DNA of 64,000 nt, taken from the NCBI RefSeq assembly GCF_024298765.1, contig NZ_CP101210.1, one strand, 5' to 3'. The position numbers were made by a program. Position 1 is the first letter of the stretch; each line of letters opens with the position of its first letter. This stretch comes from Escherichia coli (GTDB lineage: Bacteria; Pseudomonadota; Gammaproteobacteria; Enterobacterales; Enterobacteriaceae). Positions 18,001 through 21,000 of this stretch are shown one piece after another.

Positions 18001-21000
18001 GATCCAGTTCCGGCAGTAACTGACGATAAAGCGCTCGGTATTCCTGATCATGCTGCGGTGTTTCACCAATGCCGGGCAGATCGACCAGCGTCATTCTGCG
18101 TTCACCGAGCTGCAGGGTAAGACGATGAGCCTGGCGGGTGCAGCCGTTCAGGGGATGCGTGGCGCAGATACGGGACTGAAAAATGGCATTACACAGGCTG
18201 CTCTTGCCGGTGCCGGATTTACCCATAATGCCAATCACGGGCTCGTAATGAATAACACCGTGGAGATGTTCAAGGATTTTCTGGCGTATTTCTTCAGGAA
18301 GAAACGTCAGATATGATTTCACTTGCGCGGAGAGGGAAGAATTGCTGAATGGCATACCGGTATCCTGTTGATTTCACTGAACCGGATCACACTAATCCGG
18401 TTTATCATTCAGGTAATATGGGTGTGAAAATTTTTCCATTGACGGGAAGAAGAGTATGGCTAAAAACAAAGGTATTTGTCGGAATAAAAAATGCAGTAAT
18501 CCTGTTTCAGAATTTGATGAGGCAAATGCCTTAAGGTTATGCGATGATCATTATAAGCTATGGAAGCGAAATAAAGAGAATCGTCGGGTCAGGAATATTT
18601 GTCGTATAATCAGTAAATATGACAAAAGTCTGGACCGGGAGATATTTTATGGAGTAAGAGATGCTGCAAAAAATAAAACGGGAAAGAGAATTATTGAGGA
18701 CGCAAAAATATTACATCAATGCCGTGCCTCAAAGCAAGTAAGAAAAAGTTTTCACAAGGGTGTGCTTCGGTCACGGGAATGGCTTAATACACAGGAGTTA
18801 CTGAGCAGAAAACATATATCTGTTACAGGTGAACTATTTAAATTTTACATAAAAGATATTATCAGATTATATTGCTATAAGTTTCTCTACAGCAGAGAAT
18901 ATCTTAATGAAAACGCATACAAAAAACGATATCAGAGTGATATTCACCCCAGAAAAGTTAATGTTCCGATACTGCAACTTGAAGTTGCATGGATAAATAA
19001 TAATTGCCGTTCAAGTGATTCAAGCACTGATATTATTATCCTTCCGAGGATGATAAGAAGAATGGTTGTATTTAATTATACGAAGATAAATAAACAATTA
19101 GAGAAATTGTTAGGGGGGATAGCACGAAAACAAACCTCAGAAAGGAATAAAGGCGGTCTCTATACCAGAATAAAAAAAGAAAGTGACTTTCTTTCTATGG
19201 ATAGATTTATGGTGGAAATAGAAAATATCATAAGGCCTGAAAGGTTTCCGACATCAATTTATCCAGTCTTTTCACATTCATTTATTGAACGAGAGCTTCC
19301 GCTACTGAATCTTGCTCGATCACAGTATAAAAGAGCAATAAGTAAAAAAGTGGCGAATTCAATTTTTTATACTTTGCAAAAAACTAACGTAGCATTATGG
19401 CTACATCTTGAAATGTTTGCTCTGGTGGCATTCATTAAACTGTATACAGGAAAAGGTTTTGAATTCATAAAAAACATGTGTGCATTTATCGATTATAATA
19501 ATGGGATAATAAAATCCACACATGAAGAACTACTGGGTGAAATTAAGCATAACATTCAGGTTAATTTGAAGGTGAACCCTGATAATTTTCCTGAGCTAAT
19601 AAATATATACAATTCATGTTTTAGTAAAAATATATTTTTATATGATATTAATGATGGTAATTTTAAATGGTGTTCATGATTCTAAAATAGCAAATTCATA
19701 TTGCATATTAATTATCAACAAAAAACACATAATAAAATTTCAATAAGTTACCTGCTAATGGTGCTGATGATCCGCCAGTTTAGTATGGTTATATGATTTG
19801 ATGGTTAATGCTTACAGATAATCACACTTTCTTATGAATAGTATAAATGAGCATGCCATAGTCGTTTGTTCAGAGATAAAATTTACTGAATGAGCTTATG
19901 TTGTGGTTATCTGTACTTACCGGATACGACGACTTATATTCCTCACATTATATGGCTTAACTTTTCTGGGGTAAAGCGATGGAGTTACAGACGCTGATTA
20001 CGATGGTTTACTGTCTCGTTATCACGGGATTTCTGCTGTACTGAATACGTGAACAGGAAAATAACTCCAGAGTAAATCTGCTCTGTTTTTAGGACAGAAA
20101 ACTCCATGCTGGCTGTAAAAGTGAAAAATTAACACCCAGTATGTATGGAAGTCTGAAGATGTTGAGAATGTCGGTATGATACTATATACACGTATTTTAC
20201 TAAGTATTTTTACTAAGCATTTCAGTAAGTGTTATACACGTATTTTCTACTAAGTGTTTTACCAGACATACACGTATTTTCATAAACACTTCTACAAGTG
20301 TTTTCGTTAAGCATTGCTATACACATCCAGTTTAGTAAATCTTTACGTTAACTAAATCAGTTTAATGCTGCTGTAAAACCTTTCTGTTTAAGCAATCAAT
20401 CTGCTATTCGATTTTACTGATGTTACGTTTAACCTTTCCTTAGATTTCGAGTTTCGACGTTAGCTTGAGAAAAGTATCTTTACGTAAAGCCCAGTGAATT
20501 AACTCAAATCCGATTGAGGTAACCTGATGCGATTTACTGTGAGTTTGCGATAACACTGTTAAATGGCTTATGGATGATTTTGTAACGGCGAGATTGATAA
20601 GGTGATTAACTGGCCCTGGTGTTTTTTCTCAGCGTAAGGTGATTATCTTCATCATAAGGCTCTTTTCAGAAAAAGTGTGATGATTGGTTGTGGTGTTTTG
20701 ATTCAGATGAGGATCTGCCAATGATTATGATGTATTGTAAGAAATAACGCCTTCAGAATGTTGGAGCATGCACTTACACAAACTGTTTTTCTAAAATTAA
20801 GGGAACAGTTTAAAGAGTATAAACTGTTCATCTTCTTCAGGATTAAGCTACATTGTTGTTATGACTGACAGGATTGTTTTCTTCCCCTGACTCTGGGCTT
20901 AACAGTCCCTGGCGTTGTAGATATTCACTGACTGACATTCCAGAACTACGGATCCTGTCAGAGATTTTACGAAATTGATCCTTCCATTCTGCAGGTAATT

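What the first reader, a model, noticed from the sequence alone, without database searches (positions are those of the whole stretch)
20186..20360. Iteron-like array of TATACACGTATTTT direct repeats in a 1.15-kb gene-free block
Four imperfect copies of a 13-bp motif spaced 36-49 bp, interleaved with ACTAAG and AGTGTTTT submotifs and followed by two CTTTACGT(A/T)A palindromic motifs. They lie between convergent genes in a block with no ORF of 60 aa or more. This looks like a binding-site array for a replication, partition or regulatory protein, or a structured non-coding RNA locus, not CRISPR.
Basis: seen in the sequence. Interest (0 to 1): 0.5.

Follow-up and report, generated by a model that had tools for sequence, protein, structure and literature searches.

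The report
Repeat array on island Rep promoter
The repeats are real and conserved: they sit on the start of a conserved promoter that belongs to a rolling-circle-type replication gene of a genomic island found in about a third of E. coli genomes, so they are most likely protein-docking sites in that gene's control region, not a gene, a CRISPR or a folded RNA.

Summary
There are three exact ATACACGTATTTT copies (20186, 20234, 20268) and one partial copy (20319), interleaved with six ACTAAGYRTTT-type units. The block has no gene, and the 13-mer occurs nowhere else in the 64 kb.

The array lies in a 671-bp non-coding core (20041-20711) of a CP4-like E. coli island. The core is found at 2,521 places in 1,862 genomes. 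In every locus examined it lies upstream of an 'inovirus Gp2'/YagJ gene (22043-22774). That gene encodes an intact HUH-type Rep under purifying selection.

Two cis-motifs sit just before the array: ATAACTCCAGAGT (20061) and TGTCGGTATGATACTATA (20169). Both recur upstream of Gp2-family genes with only 27-42% protein identity. In K-12 yagK the second motif is the spacer and part of the -10 of a promoter that binds RpoD holoenzyme in published genomic SELEX. So the array starts at the -10/start site of that promoter.

Repeat arrays of different sequence occur at the same position in some other lineages. RNA-structure, Rfam, pseudogene, oriT and DnaA-box tests were negative.

Best reading: reiterated protein-binding sites in the Rep module's promoter/control region. 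The binding protein is unknown. A rolling-circle origin is not excluded. The neighbouring 407-aa and 176-aa genes are variable cargo, not partners.

The parts
20041..20711 (+). Conserved non-coding core of the island backbone (671 bp, 35% G+C), flanked on both sides by variable cargo
   Evidence: Module boundaries come from pairwise BLAST to 12 island variants. It occurs at 2,521 places in 1,862 of 5,426 E. coli genomes and is essentially never annotated. Alignments are A1 and A2.
20061..20073 (+). Motif 1, ATAACTCCAGAGT (family consensus MTAAYTSCAGAGT followed by a T-run); a conserved upstream element of unknown partner
   Evidence: It occurs once in the window. In 30 distant Gp2 loci there are 16 hits against 1.8 in shuffles; the exact or 1-mismatch hits are all on the gene's strand, 203-912 bp upstream of the ATG. 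It is one of the two conservation peaks of the E. coli core, at 0.96.
20068..20085 (+). Terminator-like hairpin CAGAGTAAATCTGCTCTG plus T-run, overlapping motif 1; present in only some island variants
   Evidence: Found by the scan. The right arm is not conserved in L002, L003 and L006.
20162..20190 (+). Putative sigma-70 promoter reading rightwards. It contains motif 2 (TGTCGGTATGATACTATA, 20169-20186). Candidate elements are TTGAGA (20162-20167), an extended -10 TGaTACTAT (20177-20185), and TATACA (20185-20190), which aligns with the yagK TATAAT
   Evidence: Motif 2 gives 19 hits in distant loci against 0.17 in shuffles. All are on the gene's strand, 146-827 bp upstream of the ATG. The K-12 yagK upstream sequence reads TTTAGA-TGTTGGATAGGTATTA-TATAAT. 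This equals the constitutive RpoD promoter 'TTTAGA-16-TATAAT' listed for yagK (PMC3946193). It is the strongest conservation peak of the core, at 0.95-0.97. The hexamer assignment in the window is inference by alignment.
20186..20198 (+). 13-mer copy 1, ATACACGTATTTT; overlaps the -10 and expected start site
20234..20246 (+). 13-mer copy 2, ATACACGTATTTT
20268..20280 (+). 13-mer copy 3, ATACACGTATTTT; the copy present in all 12 aligned variants, with ATACAC invariant
20319..20339 (+). Partial fourth copy, ATACACATCCAGTTTAGTAAA; the most invariant stretch of the array (identity 0.98)
20195..20317 (+). Six TTTYnnTAAG / ACTAAGYRTTT-type sub-repeats (starts 20199, 20212, 20224, 20249, 20294, 20306). 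They include the palindrome AAACACTT-CTAC-AAGTGTTT at 20284-20303
   Evidence: The most divergent E. coli variant (L054, 71% identity) has lost the 13-mer repeats but keeps five TTTTC-ATTA-RG-like units at the same place.
20335..20346 (.).
   Evidence: The pattern GTAAANNTTTAC occurs only twice in 64 kb, against 0.07 expected. In about half of the variants an insertion splits it.
20478..20489 (.).
20506..20535 (+). Local hairpin AAATC-CG-ATTG / AGGTAACC / TGAT-GC-GATTT, with compensatory changes at two adjacent pairs
   Evidence: Pairs 626:641 and 627:640. It is the only helix of this block with such changes, so the evidence is weak.
21866..22042 (+). Conserved segment directly upstream of the Rep gene. 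It contains the second copy of the dyad, GTAAAGTTTTAC (21980-21991), 52 bp before the ATG
   Evidence: The dyad is invariant in 10 variants.
22043..22774 (+). 'Inovirus Gp2'/YagJ-like gene, 243 aa: an HUH-type Rep and the constant partner of the core
   Evidence: Pfam YagK_YfjJ_C (1.8e-36) and REP_ORF2-G2P (4.4e-9). PHROG replication initiation families match. The motifs LIRVDLRF, HYHVILLL and YLVKYETK are visible in the translation, and the two His are invariant in A3. The best fold matches are AAV Rep and parvovirus NS1 nuclease domains, but they are weak. dN/dS is 0.23-0.43. The gene occurs at 2,515 places in 1,879 genomes.
18456..19679 (+). 407-aa gene: variable cargo, not part of the element
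   Evidence: Replaced by unrelated genes in L004-L006 and L012-L015. No Pfam, PHROG or PADLOC hit.
20803..21373 (-). 176-aa gene (20843-21373) and its bidirectional terminator hairpin (20803-20829): a variable cargo insertion between the core and the Rep gene
   Evidence: Window 20712-21865 has no counterpart in L003-L006 or L009-L015.

Best explanation
The array is a set of reiterated protein-binding sites at the start of the control region of the island's replication module. Shown: a bipartite cis-element, motif 1 then motif 2 64-108 bp later, is conserved upstream of Gp2/YagK/YfjJ-family HUH Rep genes across very divergent islands. In K-12 yagK, motif 2 covers the spacer and the start of the -10 hexamer of a promoter that binds RpoD holoenzyme. 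In this window the first 13-mer overlaps the -10 and expected start site, and the remaining repeats fill roughly the next 140 bp. Inferred: an island-encoded DNA-binding protein coats these sites and controls rightward transcription from this promoter by repression or roadblock. It may bridge to the GTAAANNTTTAC dyad 52 bp before the Rep ATG. Two candidate proteins are equally plausible. One is the small AlpA/Vis-type factor encoded downstream of the Rep gene in unbroken islands; phage relatives of this kind bind arrays of direct repeats at promoters. The other is the HUH Rep itself, as Reps bind direct repeats next to their origins and promoters. The array may therefore also mark the Rep's origin.
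For: 1. The array is real, unique and conserved as an array. The 13-mer is unique in 64 kb. ATACAC occurs 2-5 times in the 260 nt after motif 2 in all 12 variants, against about 0.1 expected, and never in the rest of the core. Copy number changes by whole units. The 71%-identical variant L054 has different repeats at the same spot.
2. Position. Motif 2 ends at 20186, where the first 13-mer starts. Motifs 1 and 2 are the two conservation peaks of the core.
3. Motif 2 is a promoter. The yagK sequence matches 'TTTAGA-16-TATAAT', the constitutive RpoD promoter from genomic SELEX, with H-NS at the same spacer (PMC3946193).
4. Family-wide linkage. Motif 2 gives 19 hits against 0.17 expected in 192 kb of distant loci. 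All are on the Rep gene's strand, 146-827 bp upstream. Motif 1 gives 16 against 1.8.
5. Recurrence. Strong direct-repeat arrays of unrelated sequence follow motif 2 in L031 (159 against 11), L023 (29 against 3.7) and the window (70 against 6.5). L021 and L039 show weaker enrichment, inside the range of their shuffles.
6. Partner gene. In E. coli the core and the Rep module have near-equal counts, 2,521 against 2,515 places. They are adjacent in all 14 E. coli-type loci inspected.
7. Second site class. GTAAANNTTTAC occurs only at 20335 and 21980. TTTAC/GTAAA occurs 12 times against 3.3 +/- 1.7.
8. Precedent. Apl of phage 186 and Cox of P2 are small excisionase-regulators that bind direct repeats at promoters (PMC7498355 and PMC3936717). 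AlpA follows the Rep gene in intact islands.
Against: No binding or transcription data exist for this locus, and the promoter assignment in the window is by homology only. The best -10 candidates are imperfect: TACTAT with an upstream TG, or TATACA without the final T. The consensus scan did not list it. In the window the promoter is cut off from the Rep gene by a convergent 176-aa gene and a bidirectional terminator, so simple control of Rep expression from here is doubtful in this island. Repeat spacings (48, 34, 51; sub-repeats 13, 12, 25, 45, 12) are not the one-helical-turn spacing of Apl/Cox-type arrays. Several lineages (L025, L020, L027, L040) have the promoter motifs but no array. The first half of the array is the least conserved part of the core, at 0.68-0.78. 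The core as a whole is no better conserved (74-87% identity) than synonymous sites of the Rep gene (dS 0.09-0.22).
Confidence: 0.5

Rival explanations
1. The core is the rolling-circle (double-strand) origin of the excised island. The Gp2/YagJ HUH Rep binds the repeats as iterons and nicks a nearby conserved site (motif 1 or motif 2). The promoter is part of the origin, or incidental to it. This overlaps with the best explanation and differs in the main function claimed.
For: The partner gene is an intact HUH Rep under purifying selection. The core is retained in about 2,500 places although cargo has been inserted on both sides of it, and here between it and the Rep gene. That fits a cis-acting site that need not be next to the gene. 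One or two invariant motifs plus lineage-specific repeats is the pattern of known rolling-circle origins (own knowledge: pMV158 bind/nic loci, geminivirus iterons and nonanucleotide, AAV Rep-binding element). The promoter spacer is conserved far more than a sigma-70 promoter requires.
Against: No consistent single-strand hairpin presents motif 1 or motif 2 in 11 lineages; z-scores range from -2.2 to +0.7 and most are near 0. No nick-site similarity to known origins could be established. No relative was found among true phages; the one tblastn hit is an unverified 4.5-kb contig. No report of replication of these islands was found. Fold similarity to solved HUH domains is weak, with TM about 0.3.
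Confidence: 0.2
2. The repeats act at the RNA level. The conserved promoter drives a long untranslated leader or an independent non-coding RNA of about 520 nt up to 20711. Its 5' repeats bind a protein or pair with complementary segments, in the manner of the P4 immunity leader or an RNA sponge.
For: If the promoter is real, the whole array is transcribed. About 520 nt downstream are conserved and non-coding. One unit is inverted (AAACACTT at 20284) and could pair with the AAGTGTTT units. One hairpin, 20506-20535, shows compensatory changes with G-T pairs that work only on the + strand. The island encodes ProQ/FinO-family proteins.
Against: No Rfam family matched at E up to 1. Folding energy equals that of shuffles on both strands, with z of -0.74 and -0.94. 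The covariation term is -1.3 of -48.8 kcal/mol, and only 6 of 127 pairs show double changes. No clear terminator sits at the end of the core. The array part is the most indel-rich part of the core.
Confidence: 0.1
3. The array has no specific function. It is AT-rich spacer DNA next to a promoter, in which slippage and unequal recombination generate and lose short repeats. It may be bound by H-NS.
For: The array is 29% G+C. Copy number varies. The first half is the least conserved part of the core. Some lineages lack arrays. The core is no more conserved than synonymous sites. H-NS is listed at the homologous K-12 yagK spacer.
Against: ATACAC is invariant in the copies shared by all 12 variants, and the 20270-20340 part of the array is 93-98% conserved. 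Arrays recur at the same position in unrelated sequence backgrounds. The core is retained in about 2,500 places despite flanking rearrangements. Three different short motifs are each enriched far above shuffles.
Confidence: 0.13
4. The block is an origin of conjugative transfer (oriT) that lets the island be mobilised by a plasmid, with the anti-restriction/DUF932/RadC genes acting as a leading region.
For: The backbone genes (anti-restriction, DUF932, RadC) resemble plasmid leading-region genes (F has a DUF932 gene next to oriT). A short resemblance exists between GGTTGTGGTGTTTTG (20688-20702) and the F nic region, which is recalled from memory only.
Against: Local alignment to F oriT scores no better than shuffles, 21-22 against 21.7 +/- 2.2. 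Sensitive BLAST against 72,556 plasmids found only three E. coli plasmids that carry a piece of the island itself. In F the DUF932 gene points towards oriT, whereas here the backbone genes point away from the block. The Rep has the Rep-type motif order (HUH before Tyr), not the relaxase order.
Confidence: 0.03

Closest known systems
K-12 yagK promoter region (CP4-6 cryptic prophage), a constitutive RpoD promoter TTTAGA-16-TATAAT with H-NS binding (Shimada et al. 2014, PMC3946193)
   Same: Both have motif 1 (CTAATTGCAGAGT) and motif 2 (TGTTGGATAGGTATTATA) in the same order and orientation upstream of a Gp2-family gene. This is a true homologue of the left 150 bp of the core.
   Different: In yagK motif 2 lies about 290 bp before the ATG (L041/L050-type loci), and there is no strong repeat array after the promoter (L041-type loci: 9 pairs against 2.9 expected). 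Here the distance to the gene is 1.85 kb, with an array, a 520-bp conserved extension and inserted cargo.
Direct-repeat operator arrays of small excisionase-regulators: 186 Apl at pR-pL, P2 Cox at Pc, P4 Vis (PMC7498355, PMC3936717; P4 Vis from own knowledge)
   Same: Both are several short direct repeats laid over a promoter of a mobile element. A Vis/AlpA-family gene lies in the same operon direction downstream in intact islands.
   Different: Apl-type sites are spaced one helical turn apart. Here spacings are 12-13 bp for the sub-repeats and 34-51 bp for the 13-mers. Binding has not been tested, and no att-site copy could be examined because the integrase end of the island lies outside the window.
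Rep-binding direct repeats of rolling-circle origins and Rep promoters: pMV158 'bind' locus, AAV Rep-binding element at the ITR and p5 promoter, geminivirus iterons (own knowledge; AAV Rep domains were the top fold matches)
   Same: Both pair an HUH Rep gene with short direct repeats next to family-conserved motifs, and the repeats are lineage-specific.
   Different: No nick site and no hairpin were identified. The repeats are irregular, and the distance to the gene is large and variable.
Iteron origins of theta-replicating plasmids (pSC101, R6K, P1, F oriS; own knowledge)
   Different: The repeats are not 17-22 bp units at about 22-bp spacing. There are no DnaA boxes, no GATC cluster and no IHF consensus. 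The partner protein is an HUH nuclease, not a winged-helix RepA-type initiator.

Membership tests
Sigma-70 promoter with overlapping operator repeats | Recognisable -35/-10 elements, oriented towards a gene | tested here: inconclusive
   The window sequence aligns without gaps to the yagK promoter (TTTAGA-16-TATAAT). The window hexamers are weaker (TTGAGA; TGaTACTAT or TATACA), and the consensus scan did not list them. Orientation towards the Rep gene holds in all 20 loci with motif 2.
Sigma-70 promoter with overlapping operator repeats | RNA polymerase binding or a mapped transcription start | not testable with these tools
   The only data are for the K-12 homologue (genomic SELEX, PMC3946193). 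Nothing is available for this island.
Sigma-70 promoter with overlapping operator repeats | Repeated sites overlapping the -10/+1 region that are bound by a regulator | tested here: inconclusive
   The overlap is met: the 13-mer at 20186 abuts and overlaps motif 2, which ends at 20186. Binding is untested.
Rolling-circle double-strand origin of an HUH Rep | HUH Rep with catalytic Tyr encoded by the same element | tested here: met
   Pfam REP_ORF2-G2P matches. The HYH and Y-L-x-K motifs are present and conserved. Fold matches to AAV Rep and NS1 nuclease domains are weak.
Rolling-circle double-strand origin of an HUH Rep | Family-conserved nick sequence, usually presented in a hairpin loop | tested here: inconclusive
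   Two family-conserved motifs exist, but 11 lineages show no consistent single-strand hairpin around them. Not all Reps need a hairpin.
Rolling-circle double-strand origin of an HUH Rep | Rep nicks and replicates the site | not testable with these tools
   This needs biochemistry or copy-number measurement.
Iteron-type theta origin | Regularly spaced 17-22 bp iterons, DnaA boxes, an AT-rich unwinding element and a RepA-type initiator | tested here: not met
   Spacing is irregular at 48/34/51 bp. There are no DnaA boxes and no GATC or IHF consensus. The initiator is of HUH type.
oriT (F-like or other plasmid type) | Similarity to a known nic region or oriT; relaxase; leading genes pointing towards oriT | tested here: not met
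   The backbone genes point away from the block.
CRISPR array | Regular 24-48 bp repeats separated by unique spacers of similar length | tested here: not met
   The 13-nt repeats have irregular spacing and repetitive 'spacers'.
Known structured RNA (Rfam) or conserved RNA fold | Covariance-model match, or an excess of stability and covariation | tested here: not met
Excisionase-regulator (Apl/Cox/Vis-type) binding array | Direct repeats about one helical turn apart, also present at the att site | tested here: not met
   Spacing is 12-13 bp or 34-51 bp. The att end of the island lies outside the window, so the second half of the feature could not be tested. The array may still work in the same way.
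Pseudogene or remnant of a protein-coding gene | Translated similarity to a protein family, or an intact gene in relatives | tested here: not met
   No gene is annotated under the core in any inspected locus, and only IS1 or one 'hypothetical protein' appears among the 80 listed hits. Indels are of 4, 12, 13 and 19 bp. The ten longest stop-free fragments get no Pfam hit at E up to 1. This is a Pfam-only test; no full translated search of a protein database was run.

The most novel reading that the evidence does not exclude
The 671-bp core is the cis-acting origin of a so far unrecognised rolling-circle replication module, made of a Gp2/YagJ HUH Rep, the motif 1/motif 2 site and lineage-specific iterons. 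This module would be shared by CP4-57/CP4-6-type 'cryptic prophage' islands across Enterobacterales. The islands would then be self-replicating after excision rather than passive cargo. The family-wide motifs would be the Rep's recognition and nick sites, doubling as its promoter.
Probability: 0.2. Interest if true: 0.7.

Novelty: new member of a known kind. Interest (0 to 1): 0.42.

Why it matters
CP4-like islands carry virulence, iron-uptake, toxin-antitoxin and probable defence cargo. They are present, often in several copies, in about a third of complete E. coli genomes. Their conserved backbone is almost entirely uncharacterised, and the 'inovirus Gp2' genes appear in the literature I could search only as annotation labels. 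This work gives three things. First, a concrete cis-element to test: two family-wide motifs, one of which coincides with an experimentally RNA-polymerase-bound promoter in K-12. Second, a reiterated site array and a matching dyad next to the Rep start codon. Third, a clear partner gene. That makes it directly testable whether these islands regulate, or even replicate, themselves through an HUH Rep module. It also shows that genome annotation leaves a conserved 0.7-kb backbone element blank in about 2,500 loci.

Tried and rejected
- Rfam scan at E up to 1 over 18000-23000: only two chance-level hits, neither in the core.
- RNA folding of the core on both strands, and RNAalifold on 12 variants: no excess stability or covariation.
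- F-plasmid oriT comparison: alignment score equals shuffles. The 15-nt resemblance to the F nic region that I recalled from memory was dropped.
- Plasmid and phage database searches with the core: only three E. coli plasmids, each carrying a piece of the island, and no phage.
- K-12 CP4-57 and CP4-6: no DNA similarity to the core. K-12 yagJ has an IS1 directly upstream.
- Genome-contig scan with the single Rep protein: only two close relatives, so the scan was poorly spent. Two viral contigs DNA-pattern scans gave one and zero loci.
- P. aeruginosa AlpA antiterminator model (a binding element in the promoter spacer plus a -10-like pause site): attractive because motif 2 is a conserved promoter spacer. 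However, that AlpA is a 21Q-like protein with contact residues numbered to 142. It is not the roughly 70-80-aa Phage_AlpA/Vis-type protein of these islands. I kept it only as an analogy.
- DnaA boxes, GATC, IHF and Fis patterns in the core: none.
- Single-strand DNA hairpins around motifs 1 and 2 in 11 lineages: none consistent.
- tblastn of YagK against 50,697 phage records, to find a true inovirus with the same motifs: one unverified 4.5-kb contig only.
- PADLOC, Pfam and PHROG searches for the two neighbouring cargo genes: nothing useful.
- MITE or mobile-element reading of the core: the ends share only a 6-bp inverted match, and every inspected copy lies in the same context. Rejected.
- Type III toxin-antitoxin RNA array and retron msr-msd: no regular tandem units, and no toxin or reverse-transcriptase gene next to the array. 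Rejected on anatomy.
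Full report
**Where this is.** The window is E. coli chromosome. Over the 1,163-bp block it is 100% identical to strain 104 (NZ_CP029164) and many other avian and human isolates. The annotation of that record places the finding in a large mosaic island next to yicL. The island has the classic CP4-57/CP4-6-type backbone on the minus strand: DUF4942, CbtA/CbeA, DUF987, RadC/JAB, anti-restriction, DUF932, DUF905, an HTH-WYL regulator and a YfjP-type GTPase (17471-18355). To the right lie a 407-aa gene (+), the gene-free block, a 176-aa gene (-) and an 'inovirus Gp2 family' gene (22043-22774, +). After that come IS2, ireA and more cargo.

**The observation.** It is correct in all essentials.
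- ATACACGTATTTT occurs exactly three times, at 20186, 20234 and 20268, all on the + strand. It is unique in 64 kb.
- A fourth element at 20319 shares only the ATACAC(A)T core.
- Between the copies lie six ACTAAGYRTTT-type units. One is inverted and makes the palindrome AAACACTT-CTAC-AAGTGTTT.
- The two CTTTACGT motifs exist. The second lies outside the stated coordinates and is a perfect 12-bp palindrome.
- No ORF in the block exceeds 42 aa.

**What the block is in evolutionary terms.** The block matches 2,524 places in 1,862 of 5,426 complete E. coli genomes, with up to seven per genome. Essentially none carries an annotated feature. Comparison with 14 other island variants shows a modular structure.
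- The GTPase module (17471-18430) is a constant backbone piece.
- A 671-bp non-coding core (20041-20711) is also constant.
- A Rep module (21866-22774) is the third constant piece.
- The DNA between them is variable. The 407-aa gene is replaced by unrelated gene pairs. The 20712-21865 segment with the 176-aa gene is replaced by about 300 bp of other sequence.

The constant partner is the Gp2 gene. Genome-wide counts agree: 2,521 places for the core and 2,515 for the Rep module.

The core is 74-87% identical among variants and is full of indels that are not multiples of three. Its ten longest stop-free fragments have no Pfam match. It is therefore not a decayed gene.

**The partner gene.** The 243-aa product matches Pfam YagK_YfjJ_C and REP_ORF2-G2P and PHROG replication-initiation families.
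- Its translation shows the three rolling-circle Rep motifs: LIRVDLRF, HYHVILLL and YLVKYETK.
- In an alignment with homologues of 33-50% identity, both histidines are invariant and the Y-L/M-x-K-x-x-T/S-K motif is kept.
- An AlphaFold model (pLDDT 80) finds AAV Rep and parvovirus NS1 nuclease/origin-binding domains as best solved matches. These matches are weak, with E of 5e-3 and TM of about 0.3.
- The gene is intact in nine variants, with dN/dS of 0.23-0.43.

**The key result: what lies directly in front of the array.** I fetched distant Gp2-family loci from Brenneria, Providencia, metagenomes and 26 IMG/VR contigs, with 27-42% protein identity. In compact islands the Gp2 gene, usually followed by an AlpA/Vis-family gene, is transcribed divergently from the GTPase operon across a 450-750 bp spacer. 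Two motifs recur in that spacer.

| Motif | Consensus | Window position | Hits in 192 kb of distant loci | Expected in shuffles | Position |
|---|---|---|---|---|---|
| 1 | MTAAYTSCAGAGT plus T-run | 20061-20073 | 16 | 1.8 | exact or 1-mismatch hits all on the gene's strand, 203-912 bp upstream of the ATG |
| 2 | TGTYKG-N3-4-DDTAHTATA | 20169-20186 | 19 | 0.17 | always on the gene's strand, 146-827 bp upstream of the ATG |

Each motif occurs exactly once in the 64-kb window. The two motifs are the two conservation peaks of the E. coli core. The spacing from motif 1 to motif 2 is 64 bp in many unrelated sequence backgrounds, 73 or 84-88 bp in others, and 108 bp here.

K-12 yagK and yfjJ carry both motifs. 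For yagK, Shimada et al. (PMC3946193) list a constitutive RpoD-holoenzyme promoter 'TTTAGA-16-TATAAT', with H-NS, in the yagK-yagL spacer. The sequence TTTAGA-TGTTGGATAGGTATTA-TATAAT shows that motif 2 covers that promoter's spacer and the start of its -10 hexamer.

Aligned without gaps, the window reads TGAGAA-TGTCGGTATGATACTA-TATACA. An alternative extended -10 is TGaTACTAT (20177-20185). The hexamer assignment in the window is inference. Either way, the expected start site is about 20192-20198, inside the first 13-mer. The array therefore spans roughly +1 to +140 of a conserved rightward promoter.

**Is an array at this place a recurring feature?** Partly.
- Counting 9-mer direct-repeat pairs in the 200 bp after motif 2, against shuffles, gives 70 against 6.5 (window), 159 against 11 (L031, three tandem units of about 24 bp) and 29 against 3.7 (L023).
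- L021 (56 against 28) and L039 (21 against 8) show weaker enrichment that falls within the range of their own shuffles.
- L025, L020, L027 and the yagK type show no excess.
- Within E. coli, all 12 aligned variants keep 2-5 ATACAC copies there and none elsewhere in the core. Copy number differs by whole units.
- The most divergent variant (L054, 71% identity) has lost the 13-mer repeats. It carries five TTTTC-ATTA-RG-like units in their place.
- A second site class links the core to the gene. The dyad GTAAANNTTTAC occurs only twice in the window, against 0.07 expected: at 20335 in the tail of the array, and at 21980, 52 bp before the Rep ATG. The second copy is invariant.
- TTTAC/GTAAA pentamers are 3.6-fold enriched in the core, with 0 of 500 shuffles reaching the observed count.

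**Tests of other readings.**
- Structured RNA. There is no Rfam match. Folding z-scores are -0.74 and -0.94. The covariation term is negligible, and only one small hairpin (20506-20535) has compensatory changes.
- oriT. There is no similarity to F oriT above shuffles and no plasmid homologues. The backbone genes point away from the block, whereas the F DUF932 gene points towards oriT.
- Theta-type iteron origin. There are no DnaA boxes, GATC or IHF sites, and spacing is irregular.
- Rolling-circle origin. This is compatible with the Rep gene and with retention of the core despite cargo insertions. However, no consistent single-strand hairpin presents either motif, and no nick site can be named.
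- AlpA-antiterminator analogy. This fails on homology, because the Pseudomonas AlpA belongs to a different protein family.

**Synthesis.**

Shown:
- The array is real and lineage-conserved.
- It abuts and overlaps a family-wide conserved promoter element of an HUH Rep gene.
- A second dyad motif is shared between the core and the gene-proximal region.
- The neighbouring genes are cargo.

Inferred:
- The repeats are docking sites for an island protein that controls this promoter and possibly marks the Rep's origin.
- The best candidates are the AlpA/Vis-type factor and the Rep itself. Small excisionase-regulators such as Apl and Cox bind direct repeats at promoters (PMC7498355 and PMC3936717).

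Weak points:
- There are no experimental data for this locus.
- The -10 candidates are imperfect.
- Repeat spacing is irregular.
- The first half of the array is poorly conserved.
- The core is no better conserved overall than synonymous sites of the Rep gene.
- In this particular island a convergent gene and a terminator separate the promoter from the Rep gene. This means either that the core has a cis function of its own, such as an origin, or that its transcript is the product.

I found no description of this element in the literature I could search. That search covers open-access papers only.

**Verdict.** The array is a genuine, conserved cis-regulatory or origin-like repeat array. It is a new member of a known kind: reiterated binding sites in the control region of a replication gene of a mobile element. 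Interest is moderate. It would rise considerably if the Rep is shown to nick or replicate the core.

Noticed in passing
window 20335-20346 and 21980-21991: The 12-bp dyad GTAAANNTTTAC occurs only at these two places in 64 kb, against 0.07 expected. One copy is in the tail of the array. The other lies 52 bp before the Rep ATG and is invariant in 10 variants. TTTAC/GTAAA half-sites are 3.6-fold enriched in the core.
   Followed up: partly
window 18456-19679 and 20712-21865 (also L003-L006, L009-L015): There is a cargo-exchange hot spot on each side of the conserved core. The 407-aa and 176-aa genes are swapped for unrelated genes in other islands, which carry restriction endonuclease and TIR-domain genes a little further along. 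The two window genes have no Pfam, PHROG or PADLOC match.
   Followed up: partly
window 22043-22774 (residues ~150-185): The E. coli YagJ-type Rep carries a 36-aa low-complexity insertion between the HUH and Tyr motifs. The insertion has pLDDT below 50 and is absent from distant homologues. Some copies (P0061, P0083; 214 aa) are frameshifted after LVHF and lose the catalytic-Tyr motif.
   Followed up: partly
window 20041-20711 versus 22043-22774: Core identity among variants (74-87%) is no higher than expected from synonymous divergence of the adjacent Rep gene (dS 0.09-0.22). It does not track that divergence either: L006 has a 78% core but dS of 0.094. The modules seem to have different recombination histories.
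   Followed up: partly
window 20506-20535: The hairpin AAATCCGATTG-AGGTAACC-TGATGCGATTT shows two adjacent compensatory pair changes across variants. Its G-T pairs work only on the + strand.
   Followed up: partly
window 20803-20829: A 10-bp-stem bidirectional terminator hairpin sits just after the 176-aa gene. It would also face any rightward transcript coming from the core.
   Followed up: no
NZ_AP038246.1 3164809-3166747 (hit H1): In strain HCM-28C-2 an IS1A element sits inside the otherwise identical block, so the block tolerates insertion there.
   Followed up: no
window ~30086-30652 and ~32053-32601: Two more YagK/YfjJ-domain genes lie in the same window, next to an AlpA-like HTH gene at about 31551-31787. 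Neither has motif 1 or motif 2 upstream, because each motif occurs only once in the window.
   Followed up: partly
window 16588-17268 and 17471-18355: The backbone encodes an HTH-WYL regulator, which matches the PADLOC WYL model at 2.6e-18. It also encodes a YfjP-type GTPase with a weak LeoBC match (1.6e-7). The WYL regulator is another untested candidate for binding the array.
   Followed up: no
L031 2794-2905 (IMG/VR contig 2896187957_000005): In a distant Gp2 locus, three tandem units of about 24 bp (CTATATCTAAACCTATATATCT...) start right after motif 2. This is the clearest independent example of an array at the same position.
   Followed up: partly
window 22466-22533: A weak Rfam PhotoRC-I hit (24.3 bits against a gathering score of 45) lies inside the Rep coding sequence. 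I take it as chance.
   Followed up: no
plasmid NZ_OP290546.1 8688-9434 (L014): An IncI-gamma/K1 NDM-5 plasmid carries a piece of the island: cargo pair, core, Gp2 and a YfjI-family gene. The module can therefore ride on conjugative plasmids.
   Followed up: no
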